A stretch of 40,810 nucleotides of DNA from Candidatus Micrarchaeia archaeon (lineage in GTDB: Archaea > Micrarchaeota > Micrarchaeia > Anstonellales > Anstonellaceae), in NCBI GenBank assembly GCA_041662045.1, contig JBAZTI010000001.1, positions 41,111 to 81,920 of the forward strand, given 5' to 3'. The position numbers and the translations under genes were made by a program. Below, piece after piece: positions 14,109 to 38,981 of the stretch; position 1 is the stretch's first letter; every line of letters begins with the position of its first letter. The notes beneath the pieces were generated by a model. That model saw only the letters and a program-made list of their open reading frames with translations. It was not told the origin of the DNA and did not search any database.

Positions 14109-14582
14109 ATGGGGATGCCTGAAAGCCAGCTCATACGGGGCGAGTGCCTGGTGCGCGAGCTGCAGTTCAACGAGGACGTCAAGCTCACGAGAAAGGCGCT
14201 TGTGAGGTGGCTTGCCCTCTCCCTCGGCTTGATTTCGCCGAACGAGACGCGCGCGGGCCTGCTCGAGGTGCTTGAAGCGCTCCTATATTTCCACTTCAGG
14301 AAAAGGCACGGCGGGGCTGACCCTGACATTTACCAGATACTTGACAAGGTGAAGGAGATAAGGAAGGATGAGCCCAACCCGAAGGCTGTGCGCTACCACC
14401 TGCTGCAGCTCAAGAAGCTCGGGATCATCGAGGCGAAATCGCGCAGGTACCGCTTCGTGCTTTCCCCGATGCAGGAAAACGACGACCTGTCGCTTGCGCT
14501 CTCGCATGTTTACCGCCAGAGGATGGACTCTTCTTTTGAGAAAATAAGGAAGGCGCTTTCCCTGCTTGAGAAGATGGGCTAG
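14109..14582 (+). CDS. putative winged-helix DNA-binding protein
   Basis: ATG at 14109. AVRYHLLQLKKLGIIEAKSRRYRF resembles a wHTH recognition helix plus wing. Confidence 0.5.
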   Translation: MGMPESQLIRGECLVRELQFNEDVKLTRKALVRWLALSLGLISPNETRAGLLEVLEALLYFHFRKRHGGADPDIYQILDKVKEIRKDEPNPKAVRYHLLQLKKLGIIEAKSRRYRFVLSPMQENDDLSLALSHVYRQRMDSSFEKIRKALSLLEKMG

Positions 14583-14584
14583 CA

Positions 14585-15655: not shown

Positions 15656-15677
15656 GGCATTATTGTTATAAGAAATG

Positions 15678-15685
15678 TTTATAAA
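15678..15685 (-). promoter_or_regulatory. TATA box for the low-GC orphan gene
   Basis: TTTATAAA lies 23-30 nt upstream of the ATG at 15655, in a 48-nt AT-rich spacer. Confidence 0.45.
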
Positions 15686-15703
15686 TGAAGTTACTTGGCA
15701 GCA

Positions 15704-16528
15704 TTACCTGGCTTTGCCGAGTTTGGGGAGCCCCAGTGCGGAAGCGATGGAATGGAGCGCGCCCTGCCCCTGCCGCTCGAATTCCCCGTGCGAGTGGGGC
15801 GAGCGCACAAGAAGCGAGCAGCCCACCTTTTTCACAGCGCCCGATGCAAGCAGGCGTTCCAGCCCCTCCTCTGCGCGCGCAGGCGGGACTGCGTGCGCGC
15901 GGGAGAAAAGCGCGGCGTCGAACCTGCCGCGGTGCGAGGAGAGCCAGTCCTGCACGAGCTCAAGGAGCGCATCGTCGGAGACTGATTCCAGCTTCTTTAT
16001 GCGGGCAGAAAGCGCCGAGAGCTGGCGCTCAAGCTCGAGAGAGGACAGCACGCTTTCCTCCGAGGAGCGCAGGAGCGCGCGGTTCTTCGAAAGCAGGGAG
16101 GACAGGTCCTCCTGCGCATCGCGGCATTTCTTGGCAAGCGACTCGTACGGGGCATTTGCGATTTCCCCTGCAGAGGAGAGGGATGGGAGGATGAGCCCGG
16201 CAAGCCCCGATGCGCTTGCCTGGGCAGAGGGGAACAGCGAGAGCACATGGAGCAGCGTGGCGCAGGCGCGCATTTCCTCAAGGGAGGGGTCGCTTGACTG
16301 CGGGAAAGACGCCTTTATGGACACTGAGGAGCGGCGCAGCGCGATTTGCAGGCTTGAGATTGGCAGGTTGTGCATCCCTCGCCTGCTTTTCCTTATCACA
16401 ATGGAGGATTTTGAAGTGGAAACGCTGTCAAAGCCGAGCCCTGCGAGGGAAGCTGCGTTCGGGGGGAATTTGCCCGTGAATGAAACCGGCAGTGACCGCT
16501 CGAACGTCAAGCTTCGTGCCTGCTGCAT
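15704..16528 (-). CDS. hypothetical coiled-coil protein, translationally coupled to the HerA-like ATPase
   Basis: ATG at 16528 is preceded by GGAGGTAATCAT (Shine-Dalgarno, SD) lying over the ATPase stop. Contains heptad-like LELERQLSALSARIKKLESV. The opposite-strand 285-aa ORF is Ser/Arg-rich junk. Confidence 0.55.
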   Translation of the reverse strand: MQQARSLTFERSLPVSFTGKFPPNAASLAGLGFDSVSTSKSSIVIRKSRRGMHNLPISSLQIALRRSSVSIKASFPQSSDPSLEEMRACATLLHVLSLFPSAQASASGLAGLILPSLSSAGEIANAPYESLAKKCRDAQEDLSSLLSKNRALLRSSEESVLSSLELERQLSALSARIKKLESVSDDALLELVQDWLSSHRGRFDAALFSRAHAVPPARAEEGLERLLASGAVKKVGCSLLVRSPHSHGEFERQGQGALHSIASALGLPKLGKAR

Positions 16529-25090: not shown

Positions 25091-25951
25091 TCATTTTTCC
25101 TTTCCTTCCTGTTCGGCCTTGAAGGAGGAAAACGGCTTGCTTGCCTTCTGGGACCAGAAAGATGGGAGCCTGTTTGCAACGAAACCCTCGAATTCGTCAG
25201 AGTAGACATAGGTGGCGTGCCGCCCTTTTTCCGGAAGCGTTTCAAAGCCGCTGGCTATGCGGCTGTAGATCTCCCCGATTTTCTTGCGCTCGAAGTCCAT
25301 CTGCAAAAGAGACGGCTTTCTGAGCAGGAGGTAATCGGACTGGCGGATGGCGTTTATCTCGAGATTGGATGAGTTTTGGGAAATGAAAAGGACCGAGATG
25401 TCCTTGTGCCTTGCTATCAGGATGAGGGAGGAGAGCAGCTTGTTGGCGCCTGACATGGACTGCCTTGAGGAAAACGCTATCCCTCCCTCGTCCACCAGCA
25501 CAAATGCGCCATTAGGGATGCTGCCAAGCTCCCCTGTGCAGGAGACCCAGGCCGGGAGGGCGGACTGCTCGAAGCCCATTGCATAGACCTGCCGGGTTTT
25601 TTTGGCCGCAATATTTTCAAGCAGGCGCATGCCAAGCGCGCTCTTGCCGCTTCCCCTTGCGCCAAGCACAAGGCCTATCGTGCTTTTAGAGGAATATATC
25701 TTCTCTTCGAATGCTGCAAGGCTTCCCTTCCGGGAGCGAATCTGCTCCAGCGGAATGCCTTCCGCGCGGATTGCCGGCCTTGAGGCGCGCTTGGCCGCGT
25801 CGTTGGACCCCCTGCCAACTGCAACGAGAGCTGAACTAAGCCAGTTGAAAAGCCACCTTGCCGAGACATAAATCACATGGAGGATTGATGAAACTAGCCA
25901 GACCCACGCATTCCACAGGCTGCCCGGAATTCCGGGCTTTTTTCTTGCCAT
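25091..25951 (-). CDS. Zot-like P-loop NTPase with an N-terminal TM segment
   Basis: TM WNAWVWLVSSILHVIYV, Walker A GARGSGKS, Walker B FVLVDEGG, then ARHKDISVLFISQ (like the HRH-x-G-x-D-(I/L)-x-x-x-(T/S)-Q of Zot/pI). Confidence 0.55.
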   Translation of the reverse strand: MARKKPGIPGSLWNAWVWLVSSILHVIYVSARWLFNWLSSALVAVGRGSNDAAKRASRPAIRAEGIPLEQIRSRKGSLAAFEEKIYSSKSTIGLVLGARGSGKSALGMRLLENIAAKKTRQVYAMGFEQSALPAWVSCTGELGSIPNGAFVLVDEGGIAFSSRQSMSGANKLLSSLILIARHKDISVLFISQNSSNLEINAIRQSDYLLLRKPSLLQMDFERKKIGEIYSRIASGFETLPEKGRHATYVYSDEFEGFVANRLPSFWSQKASKPFSSFKAEQEGKEK

Positions 25952-26018
25952 GCTGATGGGTTGGGAGGCTTGGTTTATTAACTTTTGATTGGCTGCGCTT
26001 GGAGGGCATCGGCAGTTA

Positions 26019-26030
26019 TATTAATTAATA
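26019..26030. promoter_or_regulatory. 12-bp perfect palindrome TATTAATTAATA in a divergent spacer
   Basis: Centred near the midpoint of the 141-nt spacer between 25951 (minus) and 26093 (plus). Contains a TAATAA half-site also found in the 57-nt operator repeats. Confidence 0.35.
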
Positions 26031-26092
26031 ACATGTAAGAAATGTTAGAAGGTGACTGGGAACCAAAGGAACTGGAAAACGGGTGAGCATGA

Positions 26093-26767
26093 ATGCCAAA
26101 AGCCGTCAACTACACAGACGAGGAGATTTTGCTTGCGCTTATCTGGTCCATGCCCAAAAAGGTGACCAAGGGCCAGATAGGCCGCCTCCTGGGGATCAAG
26201 TCCGCCGGGCAGAAGCACTGGCGCGAACGGTTGGAGAAGCTGGGAAAAAAGAGCCTGCTTTCGATTGAAAGGCTGGACACCGGGGAACTGTTCTTCGGGT
26301 CGCCCATCCTGAAGTATTACCTTACCGAGGCGAACCTGGAGGCGATTTGGGCCTACTATTTCAGCAACGATGAGCGCACCGGAAGGGTCAACGACCCTTT
26401 CCTGACCCCGTTTTCAGCCGGGATCTGGAATGTCACTTCGTCGCCCGAGTTTTCCAGGCTCGTGGGCTCGAAGTTCAACTACCATTTCCTTTGCGCCAAG
26501 AACGAGGCAAACCCGATAAATGCGTTGGAGCGCATCCGGTCGGCAAGCAAGGAAAAGATTTGGAAAACTATGGACGCCGTGCTCTCTATCGGCTGGAAGA
26601 CCGAGGCATATGGGAGAAAGCCCGTGCTGATGGACACGATGAGCCCCGAGCAGAAAAAGGCGTACAAGACCATAAAGTCGATTTACGACGGGCAGGTCAA
26701 GGCGCATCCGGCCGACTACAAGAAGTTCACTGCGCTGTTTGAGAAGGACTTCAAGTACTACCTCTGA
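26093..26767 (+). CDS. hypothetical protein with an N-terminal HTH-like segment, paralog 1
   Basis: MPKAVNY...TKGQIGRLLGIKSAGQKHWRERLEKLG. About 80-85% identical by eye to 27550..28227. Confidence 0.65.
   Translation: MPKAVNYTDEEILLALIWSMPKKVTKGQIGRLLGIKSAGQKHWRERLEKLGKKSLLSIERLDTGELFFGSPILKYYLTEANLEAIWAYYFSNDERTGRVNDPFLTPFSAGIWNVTSSPEFSRLVGSKFNYHFLCAKNEANPINALERIRSASKEKIWKTMDAVLSIGWKTEAYGRKPVLMDTMSPEQKKAYKTIKSIYDGQVKAHPADYKKFTALFEKDFKYYL
26387..26511 (+). repeat. 125-nt block identical to 27847..27971
   Basis: Compared base by base by eye. Encodes VNDPFLTPFSAGIWNVTSSPEFSRLVGSKFNYHFLCAKNEAN. Confidence 0.8.
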
Positions 26768-26846
26768 GCCGGGCGCATCCGCGAGCCATGGGCGCAAGAG
26801 AGGCATCCACACGCCTAGCCAGGGCCGGATTTTCCAACTCTTACCT

Positions 26847-26903
26847 AATACATAGTTATATATATGTGTATGGTTAATAAGTTATTAGATTAGTAATATG
26901 AAA
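26847..26903 (+). promoter_or_regulatory. 57-nt promoter/operator repeat, copy A (alternating-TA TATA element plus palindrome TAATAAGTTATTA)
   Basis: 49/57 ungapped identity to 29336..29392. TA run at 26857-26865. 13-nt palindrome at 26875-26887. Followed by SD AGGGGTG and the ATG at 26921. Confidence 0.65.
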
Positions 26904-26920
26904 GAATAGGGGTGTATATT

Positions 26921-27184
26921 ATGACCAAGAACGGGCGGATCCTTGACAAGGAGTTTGAAGATGGAATCACAGGCAGGGCTGGCGAACTGCAGAGGGAGGC
27001 GCAAGCCGGGATAAGCCGGGCGCAGGCAGGGGCGCAGTCCGGGATAAACAGGGCGCAGAGCTATGCATACGAAAAAAATGACGAGGTCGAAGCCATGATA
27101 AAGGAGCACCCGAAGGCGTTTGTGCTTGGGTCGTTCATCGGCGGGGTGGCCCTGGGCGCTTTGCTTGGCAGGGGAAACAAGTGA
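26921..27184 (+). CDS. DUF883/ElaB-YqjD-like tail-anchored membrane protein
   Basis: SD AGGGGTG lies 6 nt upstream. Tandem AQ(A/S)GI(S/N)RAQ repeats. The C-terminus EHPKAFVLGSFIGGVALGALLGRGNK resembles the ElaB-family anchor. Confidence 0.5.
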   Translation: MTKNGRILDKEFEDGITGRAGELQREAQAGISRAQAGAQSGINRAQSYAYEKNDEVEAMIKEHPKAFVLGSFIGGVALGALLGRGNK

Positions 27185-27504
27185 GCTTTCTTGATTCGGC
27201 CCTTGCATTTATCGAGGGCGTCAAGAGCGTGATAGATGCCTCTGGCGCGGCCCAGGGCGCCATCTCAGATTCCATCTCAAGCGGCATTGAACGCGCTTTC
27301 AAGAGCATCAGGCGGCCGCTTGAGCAGACCCTGATGAGGACCGCATTCATGTTTGTGAGCGTGTTCTTCATCGTTTGGGGGGCGGCGCTGTTCCTGGACA
27401 GCTTTGCGCCATACCGGGGCACGGGTTTTGTGCTGGCGGGAGCGCTCTTTGGAGCCGTGGCCTCGCTTTTCCTTAAGGAAAAGGAACCCGGGCGCTGTTG
27501 TTAG
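27181..27504 (+). CDS. small two-TM membrane protein
   Basis: GTG start overlaps the previous stop (GTGA). Helices AFMFVSVFFIVWGAALFL and GFVLAGALFGAVASLFL. Confidence 0.5.
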   Translation: MSFLDSALAFIEGVKSVIDASGAAQGAISDSISSGIERAFKSIRRPLEQTLMRTAFMFVSVFFIVWGAALFLDSFAPYRGTGFVLAGALFGAVASLFLKEKEPGRCC

Positions 27505-27549
27505 TGCGGCTATAAGATTCGAAAATATTTTGAAATGGGGGTTGTCAGG

Positions 27550-28227
27550 ATGCCAAAAGCAGCAAATTACTCCAATACTGAGATTTTGCTTGCGTTAATC
27601 TGGGTCATGCCCAAAAGGATGACCAAGGGGCAGATCGGCCGCCTCCTGGGGATAAAGTCCGCCGGGCAGAAGCACTGGCGCGAGCGGCTGGAGAAGCTGG
27701 GAGACAATGACCTGCTGACAGTGGAAACGCTTGACGCAGGGGAGTTGTTCTCAGGGTCGCCTATCCTGAAGTATTACCTTACCGAGGCAAACCTGGAAGC
27801 GATTTGGCGGCAGTATTTCGTAAATTATGATGAGCGCCACGGCTTGGTCAACGACCCTTTCCTGACCCCGTTTTCAGCCGGGATCTGGAATGTCACTTCG
27901 TCGCCCGAGTTTTCCAGGCTCGTGGGCTCGAAGTTCAACTACCATTTCCTTTGCGCCAAGAACGAGGCAAATCCGACCAAGCCCATGGAGAGCGTCGGAT
28001 CGGTGAGCAAGGAAAAGATTTGGAAAACCATGGATGCCGTGCTCTCTATCGGCTGGAAGACCGAGGCATACGGGAGAAAGCCCGTGCTCATGGACACGAT
28101 GGGCCCTGAACAGAAAAGGGCGTACAAGACCCTAAAATCCCTTTATAACGAGCAGATAAAGGCGCACCCTGCGGACTACAAGAAGTTCACTGCGCTTTTT
28201 GAGAAGGACTTCAAGTACTACCTGTAA
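27550..28227 (+). CDS. hypothetical protein with an N-terminal HTH-like segment, paralog 2
   Basis: ATG at 27550 (MPKAANY...). Paralog of 26093..26767. Confidence 0.65.
   Translation: MPKAANYSNTEILLALIWVMPKRMTKGQIGRLLGIKSAGQKHWRERLEKLGDNDLLTVETLDAGELFSGSPILKYYLTEANLEAIWRQYFVNYDERHGLVNDPFLTPFSAGIWNVTSSPEFSRLVGSKFNYHFLCAKNEANPTKPMESVGSVSKEKIWKTMDAVLSIGWKTEAYGRKPVLMDTMGPEQKRAYKTLKSLYNEQIKAHPADYKKFTALFEKDFKYYL
27847..27971 (+). repeat. 125-nt block identical to 26387..26511
   Basis: See the partner entry. Confidence 0.8.
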
Positions 28228-28236
28228 GCCCGCGCG

Positions 28237-28251
28237 TTTTGCAGTTTTTTT
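28237..28251 (+). terminator. oligo-T terminator
   Basis: GTTTTGCAGTTTTTTT lies 10-24 nt after the stop at 28227. Confidence 0.4.
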
Positions 28252-28318
28252 AGACCGCCTAGCTGTGGGCAGTGACAATGGCAAAAGATTGGGAGAGCCT
28301 GGGCTCTTCCAAGGGCAT

Positions 28319-29323
28319 TCACTGCTTCTTATTTCCAGTTTCGCGGGTTTCAATCGCATCTTCAATGAGCATAAGCGAATTAACCAGCACCAGCGGGCCT
28401 ATGATGAACCCAAAAATCCCAAAAACGCCGATTCCGCCAAGCACGCCAACAAGCAGAATAAACGGATGAATATGCGACCTGCCGCCAACAAACCGGGTGT
28501 AGAAGTAAAACTCGATGCCGATCCAGAGGATTAGACCCAGTATGAGTATGCCCCCGGCAGTGGCGTATTGGCCGATTGAGAAATAATAGAGCGCCAGCGG
28601 GATCCAGATAAGTTCGGTGCCAATGCCGGGCATGAAAGCGAATATGAAGACCAGGGCGGCAAAGACCAGGCTCGCCTGAACTCCGACCAAGGAAAAGCCA
28701 ATAAACGCGATGACCCCCTCGAGCAACGAAACCGAGCCATGGCCAAGGACGATTGCGTCGGTCGTGCTCCCGAGCTTGGCGACCGTTTTGTCGTTGTCCT
28801 TGAACGGCAGGTATTTCTTCAGGTGGGAAGAAAGCTCGTCCCATCTGCACAAGAGATAAAACATGCCATTCAGGGTGACGACCAGGCCTATGATAAAGTT
28901 CGGGGCGGACATGATAAGGGAATTGACCAGGGCATCTATGGCCAGGACGATGGATGCCTTGAGCCCGTCTGTGTCGATGTTCAGGCTTTTCAGGAATGGC
29001 TGGCCCAGGAAAGTATCGAGCATGCGCGCAAGCCCTTGGCCCTTGGAGATCCCGCCCACCTGGTTCAGAATCTCGATTGTGATCAGGAAGATGGGCACTA
29101 CCACCAGGATAACCGTGATCGCGAGGCAAAACAATGCCGCCAGCGTAGTGCCGTACCGGGTCTTGAGTATCAGGAACAGCGGCCTGACCAAAAAAGCCAG
29201 GGCGTACGCCGAGATTATTGCGCCAATGAAAGGCAGCACAATCAATGCTGAAAGCAGGATAAACCCTAGGACCACTGCCCAAAGCAAATAATTGTGAAGC
29301 TGGAGCCGGCGCAGCAAGTTCAT
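28319..29323 (-). CDS. AI-2E family transporter (PerM/UPF0118)
   Basis: 334 aa, about 8 TM. FMPGIGTELIWIP and HPFILLVGVLGGIGVFGIFGFIIGP match the family's C-terminal signature. Confidence 0.75.
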   Translation of the reverse strand: MNLLRRLQLHNYLLWAVVLGFILLSALIVLPFIGAIISAYALAFLVRPLFLILKTRYGTTLAALFCLAITVILVVVPIFLITIEILNQVGGISKGQGLARMLDTFLGQPFLKSLNIDTDGLKASIVLAIDALVNSLIMSAPNFIIGLVVTLNGMFYLLCRWDELSSHLKKYLPFKDNDKTVAKLGSTTDAIVLGHGSVSLLEGVIAFIGFSLVGVQASLVFAALVFIFAFMPGIGTELIWIPLALYYFSIGQYATAGGILILGLILWIGIEFYFYTRFVGGRSHIHPFILLVGVLGGIGVFGIFGFIIGPLVLVNSLMLIEDAIETRETGNKKQ

Positions 29324-29335
29324 ATTAGATTATGG

Positions 29336-29392
29336 AATACATAGCTATATATATGTATATGTTTAATAGGCTATTATATTCATAATATGAAA
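29336..29392 (+). promoter_or_regulatory. 57-nt promoter/operator repeat, copy B (TATA element plus palindrome TAATAGGCTATTA)
   Basis: 49/57 identity to copy A. TA run at 29346-29354. Palindrome at 29364-29376, with A:T replaced by G:C symmetrically in both arms. Confidence 0.65.
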
Positions 29393-29424
29393 AACTGCAA
29401 GAACGGAGGAAACAGGCCGTTGAA

Positions 29425-29871
29425 ATGGAGATGATATGGATGGGTAAGCACAACACAGTGTCTGGAATTCTTGTTTTTGTCGTCCTTTTGACGATTGTGG
29501 CGGCCACTGTCATGGTGGTAACTTACGCCACGGGCGTTTTGGCATCGGCAGTTGCTTTTGCGTCATCGGACCAGGTTGCCAAGATGCAATCATGCGGGAT
29601 AGCCGCCCCTCCCGAGTTATTCAAGCTCCAGGCGGACGTTTCAAGCCTCCTGATTCCGGCAATTTATGTGGGTTTCCCGGGATTGATGATAGCCATCGCA
29701 ATACTGATGTTCATAGCGGGGCATTACTACGGCAGCGATAAGGAAGGGCACAGCAGCAGCGAAACCACCGTCACGACTTCCAGCCCGAACAGGAACCATG
29801 GCAAGTACGCGAGGGGCAGGCGTGTTGAGGAGACGCGAACGCAGCGATCGTCCAAGAGCGAGGAAACGTAG
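29425..29871 (+). CDS. two-TM membrane protein with a hydrophilic Ser/Thr/Arg-rich tail
   Basis: Helices ILVFVVLLTIVAATVMVV and GFPGLMIAIAILMFIAG. First gene after operator copy B. Confidence 0.55.
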   Translation: MEMIWMGKHNTVSGILVFVVLLTIVAATVMVVTYATGVLASAVAFASSDQVAKMQSCGIAAPPELFKLQADVSSLLIPAIYVGFPGLMIAIAILMFIAGHYYGSDKEGHSSSETTVTTSSPNRNHGKYARGRRVEETRTQRSSKSEET

Positions 29872-29915
29872 CTTTGAAGATAATTGAAATGAGATAAACA
29901 ACGAGGTGGATAGGT

Positions 29916-30035
29916 ATGGCAAAGAAAAGCAGGGGCGGAAGGATGACAGCGGCCAAGAGGCGCGCTGCGGCTGGCAAGGGCGGAAAGGGAATGGTCAAGA
30001 ATCGCCCGGCAGGAAAGAATATCATGAAGACATAG
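29916..30035 (+). CDS. candidate 39-aa highly basic small protein, absent from the ORF track
   Basis: MAKKSRGGRMTAAKRRAAAGKGGKGMVKNRPAGKNIMKT. GAGGTG lies 6 nt upstream of the ATG. It fills the gap between neighbouring genes. Confidence 0.35.
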   Translation: MAKKSRGGRMTAAKRRAAAGKGGKGMVKNRPAGKNIMKT

Positions 30036-30043
30036 GCTTGGGA

Positions 30044-30823
30044 ATGAGAAGGAAATTGACGGGGGGTTTGATGGGAACATGGGTTTTGCTAATGGCAGCG
30101 TTAGTTGCATCGGTTCTGTTGCCGGGCTGCACAGGCGGCTGCAATGACGCATCATGCACCAATGGCGGATTCTGCATTGGCCTCAACTGCAATGCCACCC
30201 AGCAGCAGCCTGCGCAAAATGCGCCGGCAATCAACGCGAGGACAGGCGCGAACATTGAGCCGTTGGGGGGGTTGCCGCAACAGCAGAAGCAATACACTTG
30301 CTCGCTCACGCTCAACCCGTCAACCATCCCCCCTGGCAGCTCCACAGACATAGGCTTTGCCGTGCAGTCAGAGCAAAAGGTGGTGTTCACTTACAACTGC
30401 GGCAATGAAATACGTGAAATTTCCACCGGCGGCCTGACCAGCGGTTCGAGGCTGTGCCAGTTTGATACTCCAGGCAGCGTGAACGTTTGGATAAAGGCGG
30501 ATGGTGCGGTATGCGCGCAAAAAACGCTTATTGTCCAGCCGCTCCAGACTGCCAAGACATGCTATATAGACCAGGCCAGTGTGAAGCGAGACCTTGCCAA
30601 CTACTATTACGAGGCCAGGGTGCAGTTCTTGGGCTTTGCCCCGCAGGACGAGCTCGTGTGGATATGCGACCGCACCACAGCCAGGCATCCGCTGGGAGGG
30701 GGCGGAAGCGCGGGAATGCCCCTTTACAGCGACATCTACTGCGACTTTGCAAACCAGCCTGTAAACAGCGCCATTGAGGTCTCGATAGGGGATGTTTCGT
30801 GCGGCAGCATTTCAACCAGATGA
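30044..30823 (+). CDS. Cys-rich lipobox protein
   Basis: ATG at 30044. Signal MRRKLTGGLMGTWVLLMAALVASVLLPGC, followed by CNDASCTNGGFCIGLNC and beta-rich domains. The tracked start at 29906 is rejected. Confidence 0.6.
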   Translation: MRRKLTGGLMGTWVLLMAALVASVLLPGCTGGCNDASCTNGGFCIGLNCNATQQQPAQNAPAINARTGANIEPLGGLPQQQKQYTCSLTLNPSTIPPGSSTDIGFAVQSEQKVVFTYNCGNEIREISTGGLTSGSRLCQFDTPGSVNVWIKADGAVCAQKTLIVQPLQTAKTCYIDQASVKRDLANYYYEARVQFLGFAPQDELVWICDRTTARHPLGGGGSAGMPLYSDIYCDFANQPVNSAIEVSIGDVSCGSISTR

Positions 30824-30871
30824 GGAACATGCGGATGCTAGGACCGAATGAGGGAATGTGGAGGGGATGCT

Positions 30872-31135
30872 ATGTCTAGGCAGTATATAGAAATTGGAAC
30901 GCTGATAGTTGCTTTGGTTGCCCTGTGGCTGCTGTTCGTGTTTATCCAGAACCCCGTGGCCCTCCTGGTCAACTCGGTTTTCGCAATCATCCTGCTGATG
31001 CTCTTGAACATCATCTTCAAGGTGGGCATACCCATCAATATAATCACCGTCCTGGTAGTCGCAATAGGCGGCATCATCGGCCTTCTGCTGATACTCCTAT
31101 TCCGATTCTCGAACGTGGCATTCTATAACGAATAA
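30872..31135 (+). CDS. BofA-like small membrane protein 1
   Basis: NPVALLVNSVFAIILLMLLN...GIPINIITVLVVAIGGIIGLLLILL resembles the BofA family pattern (IPIN...LG-PG). Confidence 0.5.
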   Translation: MSRQYIEIGTLIVALVALWLLFVFIQNPVALLVNSVFAIILLMLLNIIFKVGIPINIITVLVVAIGGIIGLLLILLFRFSNVAFYNE

Positions 31136-31146
31136 GAGGTGGGCAT

Positions 31147-31398
31147 ATGGTTTTCTTCGTAGAATTTGGGGCGCTGCTGCTTGCGCTGTTCATTCTATAC
31201 CTGATATACACCCTCCTGAAAAACCCAGTGTATGTCGTTGCCAACGCAGTCATGGGCATCATTGTGTTCATGATTGTGAACATGTTCCTGGTGCGCGACG
31301 TTGCAATCAATTTTTTCTCAATTGCAATAGTTGCAATTGCAGGAATCCCCGGAGTGCTGCTGGTCCTGCTGCTCCATTTCCTGGGCCTTGGGTTCTGA
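31147..31398 (+). CDS. BofA-like small membrane protein 2
   Basis: NPVYVVANAVMGIIVFMIVN...AINFFSIAIVAIAGIPGVLLVLL. Tandem paralog of the previous gene. Confidence 0.5.
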   Translation: MVFFVEFGALLLALFILYLIYTLLKNPVYVVANAVMGIIVFMIVNMFLVRDVAINFFSIAIVAIAGIPGVLLVLLLHFLGLGF

Positions 31399-31422
31399 CG
31401 CCAAGAAAAACGAGGTGCATTT

Positions 31423-32352
31423 ATGGAAACAGACAAAATGGCCCTGCTTTTCGCAGTGGCGGCAATCTCGCTGTTCGCAGCCGGCTGCGCGCAGGAGGGA
31501 AGCGGAGCTTCTGCAGGCCAGGGAAGGGCGGTATTCGCAGTTACTGATGCTGCAGCTGATATGGGCCAGGTATCAAGCATCAAAATGACCGTGGACAGCA
31601 TGCAGGTGCAAAGCCCCTCGCAGGGCTGGATAACCGTTTCATCGGCATCCAAGACCTATGACTTGCTGCAGCTGAAGGCATCCGGCGCAAGCGCGCTTCT
31701 TGCGGATGCTAACCTGACGGCAGGAAGCTACGGCCAGGTCAGGATGCACATATCCAAAGTAATAGTCACTGATTCTTCCGGCGACCATGAGGCAAAGCTG
31801 CCTTCAGGCGACTTGAGGATTGCCGGCGGTTTCGAAGTGGCGAACAATTCCACCACAACAGTTACTTTTGACTTCCTGGCAAGCGAGTCCCTGCATATGA
31901 CCGGAAACGGCTTGTACATCCTGGCGCCAGTTGTGCACCTGCAGGAGAGGCAAGGCGCACAGGTTGACGCCAGCAGCCAGGCAAATGTCAGGATAACCGG
32001 CGGCAGGATTGGCACGGATATGAAGATTGGCATGGATGAGAAGGGCAATGCCGGGGCCGGGCTCGGGATACCTGCAAATGCCAACCTAGCGATTAATGGA
32101 AACGCAGTGGTGGTGCTTGGAACAGGCAAAGGCTCAGTTGAGGGGCAGCCCCCTTTCGGGAACGGATTGAACAATATATGGGCAACTGATGTGACTGCCT
32201 GCACAGCCATTTCCGACCAGCAGGAGAGGCTTTCCTGCATAGCCCAATGGTGCGGGTCGGAAGACAGGGATTACCAGAAATGTTACGACCTTACTGATGA
32301 GGACGACAGGCTCGGATGCCTGAATAAGTGCAACCCTAACTCGAACATTTGA
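31423..32352 (+). CDS. DUF4382-like lipobox protein with a Cys-rich C-terminal module
   Basis: Signal ...AISLFAAGC. AVTDAAADMG...GWITV...YDLLQLK...LTAGSYGQVRMHI matches DUF4382 as I remember it. C-terminus CTAIS...CIAQWC...KCY...GCLNKC. Confidence 0.6.
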   Translation: METDKMALLFAVAAISLFAAGCAQEGSGASAGQGRAVFAVTDAAADMGQVSSIKMTVDSMQVQSPSQGWITVSSASKTYDLLQLKASGASALLADANLTAGSYGQVRMHISKVIVTDSSGDHEAKLPSGDLRIAGGFEVANNSTTTVTFDFLASESLHMTGNGLYILAPVVHLQERQGAQVDASSQANVRITGGRIGTDMKIGMDEKGNAGAGLGIPANANLAINGNAVVVLGTGKGSVEGQPPFGNGLNNIWATDVTACTAISDQQERLSCIAQWCGSEDRDYQKCYDLTDEDDRLGCLNKCNPNSNI

Positions 32353-32373
32353 GGGTCTGGAACGGTGCGGTAT

Positions 32374-32592
32374 ATGCAATTGCTATTGGCGCAATGTGAC
32401 GAGCTTGCTGCGCAAAGGCTAGCAGGGCAGGGGATGTGGGAAGAGTCCCAGCCAGGCCAGGAGGAAGAGCTCAGGCCCATTGAAATCGATATCTCAGAAA
32501 ATGCCAGGCCCGAGGGGGCGCGGGAGTTTCTTCACAATGCAGCTGAGTTCCTCATAATCTCCATTTCCGGCTGCGGCCCCAAAAGGCGGTAA
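32374..32592 (+). CDS. hypothetical acidic protein (72 aa)
   Basis: The stop lies 1 nt before the next ATG, suggesting coupling. No recognisable motif. Confidence 0.35.
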   Translation: MQLLLAQCDELAAQRLAGQGMWEESQPGQEEELRPIEIDISENARPEGAREFLHNAAEFLIISISGCGPKRR

Positions 32593-32593
32593 T

Positions 32594-32905
32594 ATGAAGA
32601 CGTTGATGATAACTGCGTTGCTGCTTGCGTTGCTTATTGCATATGGCTGCGTTTTGCAGCCCCTCCCACAAGCCTGCACAGAAGAAGCGAAAATCTGCCC
32701 TGATGGCAGCGCTGTTGGCCGCCAGGGCCCGGATTGCGAGTTTGCGTCCTGCCCGCAAGCCGAAACTAATTCCACGCCATGCACAGACCATGGCTGGCGC
32801 GAATGCGGCAGTTTCACTGGCTGCGAAGTCTGCGCCTCGTGCCCCGGCTGCGATGCGCCCTCCTGCCAGACCGTGAACTTTTGCGCAAGCATGGGCGCCA
32901 ATTAG
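32594..32905 (+). CDS. small Cys-rich lipobox protein
   Basis: Signal MKTLMITALLLALLIAYGC, then about 14 further Cys in 84 residues. Confidence 0.6.
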   Translation: MKTLMITALLLALLIAYGCVLQPLPQACTEEAKICPDGSAVGRQGPDCEFASCPQAETNSTPCTDHGWRECGSFTGCEVCASCPGCDAPSCQTVNFCASMGAN

Positions 32906-32910
32906 TGGGA

Positions 32911-33258
32911 ATGTGGATTCGAGGTGAAGCGGTGGGAAAAAATGATGAAGCCAAAATAACCATCTGCACGGCGCCGCCAGGGCTATATGCCGTGATTAAG
33001 AACATGGAAAGGCCGGAAGACTCGGACGTGCTGCATACCATGCAGGTTGTGACTGCTTTCAAATACACGTACCAGGGGGATGGCGCAGGGGGGATTTTTT
33101 CCGAGCCATTAGTCTATTGCGAAAGTAAAAATGCAAACGCGCTCATTGATGGCAAGTCAAAAATCGAATTCGTCGGCTCGTTTGAAAATTGCGTTTTGAG
33201 GATAAAGGAGCTGATTTCGGCTTATTACGCTGTGAAAAATAAGAAGAACGGCGTGTGA
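32911..33258 (+). CDS. hypothetical cytoplasmic protein (115 aa)
   Basis: ATG at 32911, in frame within tracked ORF 32779..33258. Last gene of the plus-strand operon. Confidence 0.45.
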   Translation: MWIRGEAVGKNDEAKITICTAPPGLYAVIKNMERPEDSDVLHTMQVVTAFKYTYQGDGAGGIFSEPLVYCESKNANALIDGKSKIEFVGSFENCVLRIKELISAYYAVKNKKNGV

Positions 33259-33308
33259 AAGGAAAAAATAAAGAAAAAGAAGAGAAAAAAACAAAGGAAA
33301 AAAGAAAC
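33259..33308 (-). terminator. T/C-rich multi-oligo-T terminator region for hppA
   Basis: The plus strand reads AAGGAAAAAATAAAGAAAAAGAAGAGAAAAAAACAAAGGAAAAAAG. The minus strand carries several T5-T7 runs directly after the hppA stop. Confidence 0.5.
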
Positions 33309-35342
33309 TCAAATAGCCCCTACCTGCTTGCCTGCGATTATCGCCGCGACAAGCAAGGAGACGATGTTGAGTATCTTTATCATTGGATTGAGCGCGGGGC
33401 CAGATGTGTCCTTGAACGGGTCGCCCACAGTGTCGCCCACCACCGCAGCCTTGTGCGCGTCTGAGCCTTTCCCGCCGAAGTGGCCTTCCTCTATGTACTT
33501 CTTGGCGTTGTCCCATGCCCCGCCCGCGTTTGACATGAATATTGCCATGAGCTGGGAGACCAGTATGGCGCCGGCAAGGAAGCCGCCCAGCGCCTCAAGC
33601 CCGAGCGTGAAGCCAAGCACTATGGGGGTGAGCACCACGAGCGCCGCTGGCAAGTAAAGCGAGTCTATTGCCGCCTTGGTGGAGATGTCCACGCATGCTG
33701 CATAGTCGGGGTCGATTGTGCCTTTCATGATGCGCGGGTCGCGGAACTGCCTGCGCACCTCCTCCACCACAAGGTTTGCCGCCTTGCCCACAGCTTTCAT
33801 GGTGAGCGAGGAGAAGATGAAGGGAAGCGCGCCGCCTATGAGGAGCCCTATGAAGACATTGGGCAGCGCGACGTTTATCGCTGTGAGCCCGGTGGTCTCA
33901 AAATAGGTGGAAAAGAGCGCCACCGCAGCGATTGCCGCGGATGAGATGGCAAACCCCTTGGTGACTGCCTTGGTGGTATTCCCGACCGCGTCGAGCTTGT
34001 CCATCCGCTTCCTGCCTTTGGGCGAAAGCCCGGACATCTCGCCGATTCCGTTTGCGTTGTCCGATATCGGCCCGAAGGTGTCCATTGCCATTATCATGGC
34101 CGTGGTGGAAAGCATGCCCAGCCCCACAAGCGCAATCCCGAAATAGCCAAGGCCGAATGCATAGTAGCCCACCCCTATAGAGGCGGCTACCACAAGGATG
34201 CCTGCCACGGCGGATTCCATGCCCACCCCCAGCCCGGAAATCAGGTTGGTGCCTGCGCCGGATTTTGCCGCTGCTGCAATCTCCTGCACCGGCTTGTGCT
34301 TTGTTGAAGTATAGTAGTCGGTCAGGTTCATTATCACATGCGTGGCGAAAAGCCCGGTAAGCAGGGCGAAGAAAGGCTCGCTGCTCCCGAGCATGAACAC
34401 CGAGAGCGCGGCAAATGCGATTGCCTGCAGCACCGTTGAGTAGAGGAAGCCCCGCTTCATCGCCTCAAATGGGTATTCGCCCTCGTTTTTGACGCGGACG
34501 AAAACGCTTGACGCAAGGGCGAGCAGCATTCCGATGCCTGCCACGAAAAGCGGGAAAAGCGCGCCGTTTATCCCAAGGGCGAAACCGAGCACCATGGTGG
34601 ATATGATTGTCACGGTGTAGGACTCGAACACGTCTGCGCCCATGCCTGCGCAGTCGCCCACATTGTCGCCCACGTTGTCTGCGATGGTCGCGGGGTTGCG
34701 CGGGTCGTCCTCAGGGATGCCCTTTTCAACCTTGCCAACCAGGTCGGCGCCCACATCCGCCGCCTTGGTGTAGATGCCTCCACCCACCCTCATGAAAAGC
34801 GCCAGGAGGTTGGCGCCGAACCCAAAGCCGATGAGCGCCTGCCCTGCCTGGGCAAGCGCTGCGTCATTTGCCCCAAGCGAGAGGTATGCGCCTATGAAAA
34901 CAACCGCAACGCCCAGGAGCCCGACGCCTGACACGAGCGAGCCCGACACCACGCCTGCGGAGAACGGGACGGAAAGCGCGTCCTGCATTGAGGAAAGCGA
35001 CGCCTGCGCAGCGCGCGCGTTTGAGCGCACTGACAGGTACATGCCGAAGTAGCCCACTAGCCCGGAGCATGCCGCGCCCACCACAAAGGCGGACGCCACC
35101 AGGGCTCCCAGCGCAAGATAGACCACAATGGTGAGGATGACTGCGAATATTGCAATGGTGCGGAACTGGCGCGACAGGTAGGCGTCCGCGCCCTCGCGGA
35201 TTGCCTTGGAAATTTTCTTCATCCTGTCCGTGCCCTCACTTTTCCTGAAGATGGAGAGCGCAACCATGATGCCGTATGCTATTCCAACCACTGCAAGCGC
35301 AACCGGGAGGTAAAGCGCAAAGCCCGGCAGTGTTCCTGACAT
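33309..35342 (-). CDS. hppA: membrane-bound proton/sodium-translocating pyrophosphatase
   Basis: GGIYTKAADVGADLVGK, DNVGDNVGDCAGMGADVFES and GDTVGDPFKDTSGPALN motifs. ATG at 35342, with GAGGTGAT about 9 nt upstream. Confidence 0.93.
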   Translation of the reverse strand: MSGTLPGFALYLPVALAVVGIAYGIMVALSIFRKSEGTDRMKKISKAIREGADAYLSRQFRTIAIFAVILTIVVYLALGALVASAFVVGAACSGLVGYFGMYLSVRSNARAAQASLSSMQDALSVPFSAGVVSGSLVSGVGLLGVAVVFIGAYLSLGANDAALAQAGQALIGFGFGANLLALFMRVGGGIYTKAADVGADLVGKVEKGIPEDDPRNPATIADNVGDNVGDCAGMGADVFESYTVTIISTMVLGFALGINGALFPLFVAGIGMLLALASSVFVRVKNEGEYPFEAMKRGFLYSTVLQAIAFAALSVFMLGSSEPFFALLTGLFATHVIMNLTDYYTSTKHKPVQEIAAAAKSGAGTNLISGLGVGMESAVAGILVVAASIGVGYYAFGLGYFGIALVGLGMLSTTAMIMAMDTFGPISDNANGIGEMSGLSPKGRKRMDKLDAVGNTTKAVTKGFAISSAAIAAVALFSTYFETTGLTAINVALPNVFIGLLIGGALPFIFSSLTMKAVGKAANLVVEEVRRQFRDPRIMKGTIDPDYAACVDISTKAAIDSLYLPAALVVLTPIVLGFTLGLEALGGFLAGAILVSQLMAIFMSNAGGAWDNAKKYIEEGHFGGKGSDAHKAAVVGDTVGDPFKDTSGPALNPMIKILNIVSLLVAAIIAGKQVGAI

Positions 35343-37093: not shown

Positions 37094-37168
37094 AGCGGGA
37101 TAGGGTAGTTTGGAGTGCCCGCTGGGCTCATAACCCAGAGATCAGTGGTTCAAATCCACTTCCCGCTA
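37094..37168 (+). tRNA. initiator tRNA-Met (CAU)
   Basis: AGCGGGA...TCCCGCT-A with an A1:U72 pair. Anticodon stem CTGGG/CCCAG with three G:C pairs, loop CTCATAA. T arm AGTGG TTCAAAT CCACT. No encoded CCA. Confidence 0.88.
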
Positions 37169-37331
37169 TTTCATCCTGTTTCAGCGCTTGTTGTTTGAAG
37201 GATTTTTTACATTCTACTGGTTTTGTTTTTTGTTCTTGCTCCGCTCCTCTTTGGCTTGCCTGCAGCCCACCACCCCCACCAGACCTCCACACTTCCACTA
37301 TTGATGAATGATATTGTTGTTTGTATTGTTA

Positions 37332-37347
37332 TGTAACTATAGTTACA
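37332..37347. repeat. 16-bp perfect palindrome TGTAACTATAGTTACA at the centre of a larger imperfect inverted repeat
   Basis: All 8 pairs checked by hand. Flanked on the left by TTGTT-type repeats and on the right by AACAA-type repeats. Confidence 0.7.
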
Positions 37348-37494
37348 ATAAACAACAACAAACATCATAAACAACAAAAAACACAGGATAAAAATTCAAA
37401 AACCCCACCCATTATTACCGGAACCCTGGGGGTGGGCGGCCGCCTGCCGGGGCAGGGAGCTGCGCTATGGCAGGCAACAAACAAGAAAAACAAC

Positions 37495-37764
37495 TCAGGC
37501 ATCCAAACCAGCTGACGAGGCGGCGCCCTTTGTCACAACCACCACATCTTCAACTGACTTGACTGACTTGTAAAGCACGCTCTTGTCCCGCAGTATCCTT
37601 TTTGCCTCCTCCTTTGAAACCGAGTTGAGGGGCTCCATTGTCAGGCGGATGATTTCCCCCTTTTCCAAGTCCAGGAGAATCTCCTGCACGCGGCCGAGGA
37701 ACTTGCCTCCATCAGTGTAAATATCCATTCCATAGATTTTCGAGACTTTTGTTGTCATTAACAT
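37495..37764 (-). CDS. PRC-barrel domain protein
   Basis: KVSKIYGMDIYTDGGKFLGRVQEILLDLEKGEI is typical of PRC barrels. Possible starts: GTG 37767, ATG 37764, ATG 37758. Confidence 0.7.
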   Translation of the reverse strand: MLMTTKVSKIYGMDIYTDGGKFLGRVQEILLDLEKGEIIRLTMEPLNSVSKEEAKRILRDKSVLYKSVKSVEDVVVVTKGAASSAGLDA

Positions 37765-38884: not shown

Positions 38885-38981
38885 GGGCCCATAGCTCAGC
38901 TTGGTAGAGCAGTGGACTCTTATGCACGCAAAAGCGCGCAGAGCCATCCACGTGTCGTGGGTTCGAATCCCACTGGGCCCG
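38885..38981 (+). tRNA. tRNA-Lys (CUU) with a 23-nt intron at the canonical 37/38 position
   Basis: GGGCCCA TA GCTC AGCTTGGTA GAGC A GTGGA CTCTTA [38923-38945] A TCCAC GTGTC GTGGG TTCGAAT CCCAC TGGGCCC G. BHB motif: 4-bp helix CUCU/AGAG flanked by 3-nt bulges UAU and CCA. Confidence 0.88.

What the first reader, a model, noticed from the sequence alone, without database searches (positions are those of the whole stretch)
26847..26903. Duplicated 57-nt promoter/operator whose 13-nt palindrome carries a compensatory arm substitution
26847-26903 and 29336-29392 align without gaps at 49 of 57 positions. Each copy has an alternating-TA run (TATA element) followed about 20 nt downstream by a perfect 6+1+6 palindrome. 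Copy A reads TAATAA-G-TTATTA (26875-26887) and copy B reads TAATAG-G-CTATTA (29364-29376). The only differences inside the palindrome are A to G in the left arm and the mirrored T to C in the right arm, so dyad symmetry is preserved. That is the expected signature of selection for a dimeric DNA-binding protein site (or a hairpin) rather than chance AT-richness. The palindrome sits where an archaeal repressor would block TFB/RNAP, between the TATA element and the predicted start. Copy A heads the ElaB-like, 2-TM and paralog-2 operon. Copy B heads the nine-gene membrane and lipobox operon and also faces the divergent AI-2E permease. A related TAATAA-containing palindrome (26019-26030) lies upstream of paralog 1.
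Basis: partly seen in the sequence, partly recalled or inferred. Interest (0 to 1): 0.7.

Follow-up and report, generated by a model that had tools for sequence, protein, structure and literature searches.

The report
Conserved Micrarchaeota promoter-operator, duplicated
The two 57-base repeats are copies of a promoter and probable regulator-binding site that is conserved across Micrarchaeota, sits beside an uncharacterised winged-helix protein gene, and heads cell-envelope operons; the claimed compensatory mutation does not hold up.

Summary
26847-26903 and 29336-29392 match at 49/57 positions without gaps, and each carries a TATA run and a 13-nt palindrome.

The element is not private to this window. 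At least one instance occurs in 16 of 23 related Micrarchaeota loci, always in the same conserved gene cluster. It heads operons for small membrane or secreted proteins, or for the paralog ("PAR") itself.

Across five genomes the 57-nt block is 61-89% identical, while its flanks are at background (19-52%). A matrix built only from other genomes finds exactly these two sites in the 40.8-kb window.

The conserved parts are ACATA(G), TATATATAT, and three half-sites: TAATA-N3-TATTA-N6-TAATA.

The "compensatory" inner pair is complementary only in the two window copies. It is unpaired in 4 of 4 orthologous elements.

PAR is an orphan family with no Pfam or NCBIfam match. Its AlphaFold model has an N-terminal winged helix that weakly resembles PadR, MarR and ArsR regulators.

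Best reading: a core promoter plus an operator array overlapping the predicted transcription start, probably bound by PAR and autoregulatory. It was probably duplicated with its gene block. Binding and the start site are inferred, not shown. Moderate interest; a new member of a known kind.

The parts
26847..26903 (+). Copy A of the 57-nt promoter/operator module. It lies downstream of PAR1 and upstream of the ElaB-like gene.
   Evidence: 49/57 identity to copy B; conserved block in 5 genomes.
29336..29392 (+). Copy B of the module. It sits in the roughly 100-nt divergent spacer between the AI-2E permease (-) and the MGKHN operon (+).
26850..26865 (+). ACATAG block in the BRE position (26850-26855) plus the TATA box TTATATATAT (26856-26865). 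Copy B equivalents are 29339-29344 and 29345-29354.
   Evidence: Invariant columns ACATA and TATATATAT in alignment A2. The role as BRE/TATA is inferred from the archaeal promoter consensus.
26875..26887 (+). The 5-nt arms are invariant; the inner pair is not conserved.
26883..26898 (+). Best-conserved core dyad TATTA-N6-TAATA (family consensus TATTAYATTNGTAATA). The copy B equivalent is 29372-29387. It overlaps the predicted transcription start near 26887 (copy A) and 29376 (copy B).
   Evidence: The start site is inferred from the usual -26/-27 position of the TATA box.
26093..26767 (+). PAR1, an orphan predicted winged-helix protein and the candidate cognate regulator.
27535..28227 (+). PAR2, 84% amino-acid identity to PAR1 (the conserved start is probably ATG 27550). 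It is the third gene of the operon headed by copy A.
26921..27504 (+). Tail-anchored 'ElaB-like' gene (26921-27184) and 2-TM gene (27181-27504), the first genes downstream of copy A.
   Evidence: orthologues behind the same motif in L001, L013, L019 and others.
28319..29323 (-). AI-2E family transporter. Its ATG lies 13 nt left of copy B and 22 nt from the TATA box, so a leaderless transcript from the shared TATA box is possible.
   Evidence: The TATA-to-ATG distance is 22-24 nt in the window, L013 and L019 but not in other loci.
29425..33258 (+). Operon headed by copy B: the MGKHN membrane protein (probable start ATG 29440), g29906, two BofA-like genes, a DUF4382 lipoprotein and small Cys-rich proteins.
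   Evidence: the same gene order in L001, L013, L023.
26019..26042 (+). PAR1 upstream motif TATTA-AT-TAATA followed by ACATGTAAGAAA. It is the window version of the conserved PAR-upstream motif TATTAAGTAATAG-N3-TGTAAGAAAC.

Best explanation
Each 57-mer is one copy of a promoter-operator module conserved across Micrarchaeota (DPANN archaea).

The module has three parts. First comes a strong archaeal core promoter: an ACATAG block in the BRE position followed by a consensus TATA box. Second, 9 nt downstream, comes an array of three pentamer half-sites, TAATA-N3-TATTA-N6-TAATA. Third, this array spans the region from about -13 to +11 around the predicted transcription start.

Copy A drives the ElaB-like, 2-TM and PAR2 genes. 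Copy B drives the MGKHN/BofA/DUF4382 envelope operon. Copy B probably also drives the divergent, leaderless AI-2E permease gene through the same near-symmetric TATA box.

The half-site array is the binding site of a dimeric or oligomeric DNA-binding protein. The most likely candidate is PAR, the adjacent orphan winged-helix protein. Bound there, it would act after TBP/TFB binding to block RNA polymerase recruitment or promoter opening, i.e. repression, and it would regulate its own gene.

The two copies in this window most likely exist because a block [PAR - AI-2E(-) - module - ElaB - 2TM] was duplicated in tandem and each copy then lost different genes.

Shown: the repeat itself, its phylogenetic conservation, its specificity to this gene cluster, and its position at operon heads. 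Inferred: the transcription start, protein binding, PAR as the binder, the direction of regulation, and the duplication history.
For: 1. Conservation.
- Nearly the same module occurs in related genomes: nhmmer and weight-matrix hits in 16 of 23 loci.
- In six comparable elements from five genomes, the 57 columns are 61-89% identical and the flanks 19-52%. The PAR proteins of these genomes are only 68-89% identical.

2. Specificity.
- A matrix built without the window copies finds only these two sites in 40.8 kb.
- In about 300 kb of window plus loci, the strong hits (about 24 bits or more) all lie at heads of genes of the same cluster. These genes are ElaB-like/2TM, MGKHN, DUF4382, Ice_binding (PF11999) secreted proteins, DUF5670, a PRC-barrel protein, tiny TM proteins, and PAR itself.
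- Copies of ElaB-like and MGKHN genes that sit inside operons have no motif.

3. Geometry.
- The TATA box is 9-18 nt upstream of the dyads, with Shine-Dalgarno-like sequences and start codons 20-170 nt further on.
- The half-site centres of TATTA-N6-TAATA are 11 bp apart, one helical turn.

4. The candidate regulator.
- PAR is the only predicted DNA-binding protein in the conserved neighbourhood.
- Its AlphaFold model (pLDDT 78, pTM 0.80) has an alpha-alpha-alpha-beta-beta winged helix at residues 9-76 plus a helical C-terminal domain.
- The best Foldseek PDB hits are PadR/VanR, MarR, ArsR, AbfR2 and Phr regulators.
- The invariant stretch G30 R31 ... K36 S37 A38 G39 Q40 K41 W43 R46 falls on and just before the third helix of the predicted winged-helix domain (helices at residues 37-40 and 43-52 in the model). 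That helix is presumably the recognition helix, which fits recognition of an invariant DNA motif.

5. Signature of autoregulation.
- The motif lies directly upstream of PAR in L013 and L005. PAR is the third gene of a motif-headed operon in the window, L003, L014, L015 and L021.
- PAR genes carry their own TATTA-N2-TAATA motif upstream.

6. Duplication.
- L001 and L019 have PAR | AI2E(-) | motif | ElaB 2TM MGKHN...
- The window has PAR1 | motif | ElaB 2TM | PAR2 | AI2E(-) | motif | MGKHN.
- L013 has the two blocks in the opposite order.
- A 9-nt CAAGAACGG, matching ElaB codons 3-5, also follows copy B.
Against: - No binding or expression data exist. The transcription start is only predicted.
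- The fold matches of PAR are weak (best E 1e-3, TM about 0.3 over the full length). PAR has no Pfam, NCBIfam or PDB sequence match.
- All related loci were fetched through PAR, so the co-localisation of PAR and the motif is partly built into the sampling. Only the roughly 150 kb of non-cluster flanks serve as a control.
- Whole genomes could not be scanned, and the one metagenome scan was swamped by AT-rich junk.
- The spacing between the TATA box and the core falls into two classes (about 11 and 18 nt), and the half-site arrangement varies, so the exact operator is not defined.
- Seven of 23 loci have no strong core hit.
- PAR1-PAR2 identity (84%) is only marginally above identity to orthologues (81-83%), so the duplication history is tentative.
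Confidence: 0.6

Rival explanations
1. A constitutive 'strong promoter' architecture with no dedicated regulator. The conserved ACATAG/TATA/AT-rich pentamers are core-promoter elements (BRE, TATA, promoter-proximal and initially melted region, initiator). They would be selected for high expression of envelope genes in a 58% G+C genome and read only by TBP, TFB and RNA polymerase.
For: The element begins with a textbook TATA box, and the conserved AT-rich blocks lie exactly where the DNA is melted, about -12 to +2. The downstream genes are surface and membrane proteins, which are often highly expressed. PAR's own putative TATA box is built from the same pentamers.
Against: Conservation is of specific pentamers in fixed inverted or direct arrangements, not of AT-richness as such. 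Further GTAATA units repeat at about 19-nt intervals well downstream of any plausible start in L016, L012, L002 and L014. Other promoters in the window lack the motif. The motif tracks one gene cluster that always encodes a winged-helix protein.
Confidence: 0.2
2. One reading: the 13-nt 6+1+6 palindrome is the operator, and its dyad symmetry is maintained by compensatory change.
For: Both window copies are perfect 6+1+6 palindromes that differ by mirrored substitutions. The 5-nt arms are invariant in six related elements.
Against: Positions 6 and 8 are non-complementary in all four orthologous elements and in 8 of 11 instances overall, and shuffles match the observed covariation 227 times out of 500. 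The left arm is missing or degenerate in many loci that still keep the TATTA-N6-TAATA core.
Confidence: 0.12
3. An RNA-level element: the conserved sequence is the 5' end of the mRNAs and acts as a hairpin or as the binding site of an RNA-binding protein.
For: Part of the array (TATTA-N6-TAATA and later GTAATA units) would be transcribed in elements of the window type. The U-G combination at the sixth pair of the second dyad would be tolerated in RNA.
Against: Predicted folds are no more stable than shuffled sequence (z between 0 and +1.5). There is no Rfam match and no covariation. In elements with the short spacing the core lies between the TATA box and the predicted start, so it would not be transcribed.
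Confidence: 0.05
4. A neutral leftover of a recent segmental duplication with no function of its own.
For: The 86% identity of the two copies is about what near-neutral sites of the co-duplicated paralog genes show (81% at fourfold sites).
Against: The flanks of the 57-mers are unalignable although neutral sites are still 81% identical. The same block is conserved in other genomes while its flanks are at background.
Confidence: 0.03

Closest known systems
Phr (PF1790), the heat-shock regulator of Pyrococcus furiosus, and similar archaeal repressors such as MDR1 and LrpA that bind between the TATA box and the transcription start (from my own knowledge of the literature; PDB 2p4w is among the fold hits)
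   Same: A protein of about 200 aa with an N-terminal winged helix and a helical C-terminal part. A dyad operator lies downstream of the TATA box and overlaps the transcription start. The regulator controls a small stress or envelope regulon that includes its own gene. The mechanism is blocking RNA polymerase recruitment after TBP/TFB binding.
   Different: There is no detectable sequence similarity, and the fold match to 2p4w is weak (E 0.07, probability 0.54). The half-site sequence and arrangement differ (three TAATA/TATTA pentamers). Nothing has been tested experimentally for PAR.
PadR subfamily 1 regulators (B. subtilis PadR 5x11, C. glutamicum VanR 5z7b)
   Same: These are the best Foldseek hits. 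They share the two-domain plan of an N-terminal winged helix and a separate C-terminal helical dimerisation domain, as described in PMC5728393. They are local regulators encoded next to their targets.
   Different: No member of the PAR alignment matches Pfam PadR, even at E up to 10. PAR is longer (224 aa, against the 19-22 kDa of subfamily 1). TM-scores are only about 0.3. The bacterial PadR operator consensus, as I recall it (ATGT-N8-ACAT), is not the conserved core here.
Canonical archaeal core promoter (BRE-TATA-initiator), including divergent gene pairs that share one AT-rich spacer
   Same: A TATATATA box lies at a suitable distance from the start codons. A conserved block lies immediately upstream in the BRE position. 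In copy B the divergent AI-2E start codon is 22 nt from the TATA box, the distance expected for a leaderless mRNA.
   Different: The block in the BRE position (ACATAG) is not the usual purine-rich BRE. The additional conserved pentamer array is not part of the general promoter.

Membership tests
Archaeal core promoter | A TATA box (consensus about TTTAWATA) roughly 25-30 nt upstream of the transcription start, on the strand of a downstream gene | tested here: met
   TTATATATAT at 26856-26865 and CTATATATAT at 29345-29354. They lie 56 and 86 nt upstream of the probable start codons ATG 26921 and ATG 29440, and Shine-Dalgarno-like GGGGTG and GGAGATGA sequences lie between. The TATA run is invariant in 6 of 6 related elements.
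Archaeal core promoter | An experimentally mapped transcription start about 23-27 nt downstream of the TATA box | not testable with these tools
   No transcript data are available. Starts near 26887 and 29376 are predictions only.
Operator of a dimeric HTH regulator | Dyad-symmetric half-sites conserved in sequence and spacing at orthologous promoters | tested here: met
   The TAATA / TATTA / TAATA blocks are invariant in alignment A2. The core TATTAYATTNGTAATA was recovered in 16 of 23 loci.
Operator of a dimeric HTH regulator | Demonstrated protein binding | not testable with these tools
   This needs a gel shift or footprint.
   For pair 54-56 of A2 the counts are AU 1, GC 1 and other 4, and 227 of 500 shuffles do as well. 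Only 3 of 11 instances are complementary.
PadR family (Pfam PF03551) | Sequence match to the family profile | tested here: not met
   None of the 27 members of alignment A1 matches PadR at E up to 10. There is no NCBIfam match and no PDB sequence match.
PadR family (Pfam PF03551) | Fold: an N-terminal winged helix plus a C-terminal helical dimerisation domain | tested here: inconclusive
   The top Foldseek hits are 5z7b and 5x11 (E 1e-3 to 3e-2), but TM is only 0.25-0.33 and rmsd 12-20 A over the full length.
Winged-helix (MarR/ArsR/Lrs14-type) DNA-binding domain | An alpha1-alpha2-alpha3-beta-beta wing topology that superposes on solved wHTH regulators | tested here: met
   The model has helices at 9-19, 26-32 and 37-52 and strands at 57-60 and 73-76. 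About 70-90 residues align to AbfR2, MarR, ZitR and ArsR-type chains at 3-5 A with probability 0.96-1.0, but E-values are only 0.06-0.2.
Known structured RNA (Rfam) | A match to a covariance model, or a fold more stable than shuffled sequence | tested here: not met
   No Rfam match at E up to 1 in 25800-30000. Only two tRNAs were found in the whole window. Fold z-scores range from 0 to +1.5.
   No Pfam hit at E up to 0.01 and no NCBIfam hit at E up to 0.1. Only the C-terminal tail-anchor motif looks similar by eye.

The most novel reading that the evidence does not exclude
PAR is a Micrarchaeota-specific master regulator from a previously unrecognised winged-helix family. By binding arrays of TAATA/TATTA (GTAATA) boxes it would switch a conserved cell-envelope programme on or off. 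That programme includes Ice-binding-like adhesins, tail-anchored stress proteins, small membrane proteins and an AI-2E transporter, and it could be the host-attachment or envelope-stress programme of these episymbiotic DPANN archaea. The motif would then give a ready-made sequence handle for predicting the regulon in uncultivated lineages.
Probability: 0.3. Interest if true: 0.55.

Novelty: new member of a known kind. Interest (0 to 1): 0.36.

Why it matters
Almost nothing is known about gene regulation in DPANN archaea, which are mostly uncultivated. This finding pairs a sharply defined cis-element of about 50 nt, conserved across many Micrarchaeota genomes, with an orphan protein family that looks like a winged-helix regulator. 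It also gives a target set of envelope and surface genes. That is a concrete hypothesis testable in vitro: a gel shift or footprint with a recombinant 26-kDa protein on a 60-bp probe. It would also assign a function to a family of several hundred 'hypothetical proteins'. Conceptually it remains an ordinary promoter-operator arrangement.

Tried and rejected
1. Looking up PAR1 by exact sequence in public assemblies found no record.
2. The metagenome scan with ATATATA-N(3,30)-TATTAYATTNRTAATA returned 120 stretches, all from contigs of 10-49% G+C and none with a cluster gene. The result is uninformative.
3. IMG/VR contains no PAR relative, so a viral origin is not indicated.
4. PDB sequence search, Pfam and NCBIfam gave nothing for PAR.
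5. An exhaustive profile search found only one cluster at 50% identity, plus fragments and two distant relatives. The contexts of those two relatives (L144; L145, which is next to an integrase) show no clear motif.
6. Extending the A/B alignment beyond 57 nt, or aligning the spacers after the two PAR stop codons, gave only 8-nt chance-level matches.
7. An RNA hairpin, an Rfam family and covariation were all tested and rejected.
8. I considered that one symmetric TATA box always serves the divergent AI-2E gene. The 22-24-nt spacing holds in the window, L013 and L019 but not in L001, L005, L007 or L014, so I keep this as a local possibility only.
9. About 150 kb of non-cluster sequence was already free of hits.

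Full report
**1. The observation.**
- Reading the sequence and the repeat finder confirm that 26847-26903 and 29336-29392 align without gaps at 49 of 57 positions. A local alignment with flanks does not extend the match in either direction.
- Each copy has a TA run (26856-26865; 29345-29354) and, 9 nt further on, a 13-nt palindrome. These are TAATAAGTTATTA at 26875-26887 and TAATAGGCTATTA at 29364-29376.
- TAATA-N3-TATTA occurs nowhere else in the window, against 0.08 expected.
- The window is about 58% G+C with only about ten AT-rich patches.

**2. Organism and genes.**
- The window comes from a Micrarchaeota (DPANN) archaeon. Homologues of the paralog ('PAR', 26093-26767 and 27535-28227) carry names from their sources such as 'Candidatus Micrarchaeia/Micrarchaeota archaeon'.
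- Copy A lies 79 nt after the PAR1 stop codon. It is 18 nt upstream of a tail-anchored 87-aa gene (ATG 26921, preceded by GGGGTG), which is followed by a 2-TM gene and PAR2.
- Copy B lies in the roughly 100-nt spacer between an AI-2E family transporter on the minus strand (PF01594, ATG at 29323) and a run of same-strand genes. That run consists of the MGKHN membrane protein, g29906, two BofA-like genes, a DUF4382 lipoprotein and small Cys-rich proteins.
- Orthologues start at MGKHN, so the likely start is ATG 29440 behind GGAGATGAT.

**3. The element is conserved in other genomes.**
- Twenty-three related loci were fetched through PAR.
- The exact TAATA-N3-TATTA pattern is present in 9 of them.
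- An nhmmer profile of the two window copies, and then a weight matrix of the core, find the element in 16 of the 23.
- The common plan is (A)CATAG, then TATATATA, then a spacer, then TAATA/TATTA pentamers. The best-conserved stretch is TATTAYATTNGTAATA.
- In six directly comparable elements from five genomes (alignment A2) the invariant blocks are ACATA, TATATATAT, TAATA, T.TTA.A and TAATA.
- Over the 57 columns, identity is 61-89%. Over the 42 flanking columns it is 19-52%. The PAR proteins of these genomes are only 68-89% identical, so this is a phylogenetic footprint.
- A matrix built from other genomes only picks out exactly 26882 and 29371 in the window, at 27.0 and 29.3 bits. The only other window hit of 12 bits or more is 15.5 bits on the reverse strand inside copy B, and the best of 200 Markov controls is 17.8.

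**4. What the element heads.**
- Synteny mapping shows a conserved cluster: PAR | AI-2E(-) | motif | ElaB-like 2TM | MGKHN g29906 BofA BofA DUF4382.
- Across loci the motif always points the same way as PAR, with one exception (the L015 instance at 4192, upstream of a PRC-barrel gene).
- It precedes the first gene of a run. These first genes are the ElaB-like/2TM genes, MGKHN, DUF4382, large secreted Ice_binding (PF11999) proteins, a DUF5670 protein, a PRC-barrel protein, tiny TM proteins, or PAR itself.
- ElaB-like or MGKHN genes that lie inside runs have no motif and no AT-rich spacer.
- The left flanks of the loci and the rest of the window, about 150 kb of non-cluster genes, have no strong hit.
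- The element is therefore not a general feature of promoters in these genomes, as far as the available sequence shows.

**5. The compensatory-change claim.**
- The two substitutions are real. In the four orthologous elements, however, the same two positions read C/A, A/C, T/C and A/C.
- On A2 the pair counts are AU 1, GC 1 and other 4, and 227 of 500 shuffles do as well.
- Over all 11 exact instances only 3 are complementary.
- The arms that are conserved are 5 nt long and never vary, which says nothing about pairing.
- The second dyad shows no covariation either.
- RNA folds of the 57-mers and of the predicted leaders are no more stable than shuffled sequence, and Rfam has no match.
- The evidence therefore favours sequence-specific recognition of double-stranded DNA, not a hairpin.

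**6. Geometry.**
- If TATATATA (26857-26864) is centred at -26/-27, the transcription start falls near 26887 in copy A and near 29376 in copy B. This is an inference.
- TAATA-N3-TATTA then spans about -13 to -1, and TATTA-N6-TAATA about -5 to +11.
- In a second class of elements the gap between the TATA box and the core is about 11 nt instead of 18 nt. There the TATTA-N6-TAATA dyad itself occupies the -13 to +3 position.
- Some loci add further GTAATA units at about 19-nt intervals, for example L016, L012, L002 and L014.
- Sites in this position are typical of archaeal repressors that let TBP/TFB bind but exclude RNA polymerase. That statement rests on established knowledge of Phr, MDR1 and LrpA, not on a test here.

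**7. The candidate regulator.**
- PAR has no Pfam, NCBIfam or PDB sequence match.
- An exhaustive profile search finds essentially one family, plus fragments and two distant relatives. None is in IMG/VR.
- The AlphaFold model (pLDDT 78, pTM 0.80) has a winged-helix topology at residues 9-76 and a helical C-terminal half.
- The best Foldseek PDB hits are VanR and PadR over the full length, but they are weak (E 1e-3 to 3e-2, TM about 0.3). Over the N-terminal 70-90 residues the hits are MarR, ZitR, ArsR, AbfR2 and Phr (3-5 A, probability up to 1.0, E 0.06-0.2).
- The two-domain plan matches the description of PadR subfamily 1 in PMC5728393.
- The most invariant stretch of the family, G30 R31 ... 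KSAGQK.W..R, falls on and just before the third helix of the predicted winged-helix domain, presumably the recognition helix.
- PAR is the only predicted DNA-binding protein in the conserved neighbourhood.
- PAR is often itself downstream of the motif. The motif lies directly upstream of it in L013 and L005, and PAR is the third gene of a motif-headed run in the window, L003, L014, L015 and L021.
- PAR genes also carry their own conserved upstream motif, TATTAAGTAATAG-N3-TGTAAGAAAC. It is built from the same pentamers.
- Together this is the usual signature of a local, autoregulated transcription factor. It remains an inference, and the sampling through PAR inflates the co-localisation.

**8. 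Why there are two copies here.**
- L001 and L019 have one motif between AI-2E(-) and the ElaB-like gene.
- The window has [PAR1, motif, ElaB, 2TM] followed by [PAR2, AI-2E(-), motif].
- L013 has the two blocks in the opposite order.
- Both arrangements follow from a tandem duplication of [PAR, AI-2E(-), motif, ElaB, 2TM] with different losses in each copy.
- A 9-nt CAAGAACGG, identical to ElaB codons 3-5 at 26925, follows copy B at 29398 and may be a remnant.
- PAR1 and PAR2 are 84% identical in protein and 81% identical at fourfold sites. The 86% identity of the 57-mers is therefore unremarkable on its own. What is remarkable is that everything around them is unalignable.

**9. Verdict.**
The interpretation as a duplicated promoter/operator is broadly right.
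- The specific argument from a compensatory substitution is not supported. The operator core is better described as TATTA-N6-TAATA with an optional upstream TAATA.
- This is a new instance of a familiar kind of system, a local winged-helix regulator with an operator overlapping the promoter. It occurs in a poorly studied phylum and involves an orphan protein family.
- The main gaps are the lack of any binding or transcript data and the lack of a whole-genome scan. My one metagenome scan was wasted on an all-AT pattern.

Noticed in passing
window 26019-26042, and about 20-60 nt upstream of the PAR start in L001-L023: PAR genes carry their own conserved upstream motif, TATTA-N2-TAATA followed by N3-TGTAAGAAAC, about 20 nt before a Shine-Dalgarno-like AGGAAGTGA. 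It is present even in loci that lack the main core motif (L006, L008-L011, L017, L018).
   Followed up: partly
window 29324-29340: Left of the TATA box of copy B, abutting the start codon of the AI-2E gene (ATG 29323-29321 on the minus strand), TATTAGATTATGGAATA resembles the core of copy A (TATTAGATTAGTAATA) with one extra base. It may be a further site serving the divergent promoter.
   Followed up: no
window 29398-29406 and 26925-26933: The 9-mer CAAGAACGG, which is codons 3-5 of the ElaB-like gene behind copy A, recurs 5 nt after copy B in non-coding DNA. It may be a remnant of a deleted ElaB-like gene.
   Followed up: partly
window 37169-37500: An AT-rich non-coding stretch of about 330 nt lies directly after a tRNA gene (37094-37168). 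It has nested imperfect inverted repeats of TTGTTGTTTG / CAAACAACAA around a centre near 37339/37340. Its function is unknown; an origin, an attachment site or a divergent promoter have not been examined.
   Followed up: no
window 14400-15650: A low-G+C island (47-50%, against about 59% around it) coincides with a 356-aa minus-strand ORF (14585-15655) that I did not annotate. A 63-nt AT-rich spacer at 15646-15708 carries two TATA-like boxes.
   Followed up: no
window 33251-33318: A 68-nt tract that is almost entirely purine (AAAGGAAAAAATAAAGAAAAAGAAGAGAAAAAAACAAAGG...) lies between the convergent ends of the copy-B operon and the membrane pyrophosphatase gene.
   Followed up: no
L011, L013 (two copies) and L018, all from one MAG (LacPavin_0419_WC90_MAG_54_17); L145: PAR is multi-copy in some genomes, with four copies on three contigs of one MAG. 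Two of those copies lie outside the envelope cluster. The most distant relative found (P0127) sits next to a phage-integrase-family gene.
   Followed up: no
L016 6801-6860; L012 6790-6850: In some genomes the GTAATA unit is repeated three times at a 19-nt period downstream of the TATA box, in an iteron-like array. Other genomes have an 18-nt rather than an 11-nt gap between the TATA box and the core. The meaning of the two spacing classes is unexplained.
   Followed up: partly
window 38885-38981: The second tRNA match is 97 nt long for a 71-position model, so it probably contains an intron.
   Followed up: no
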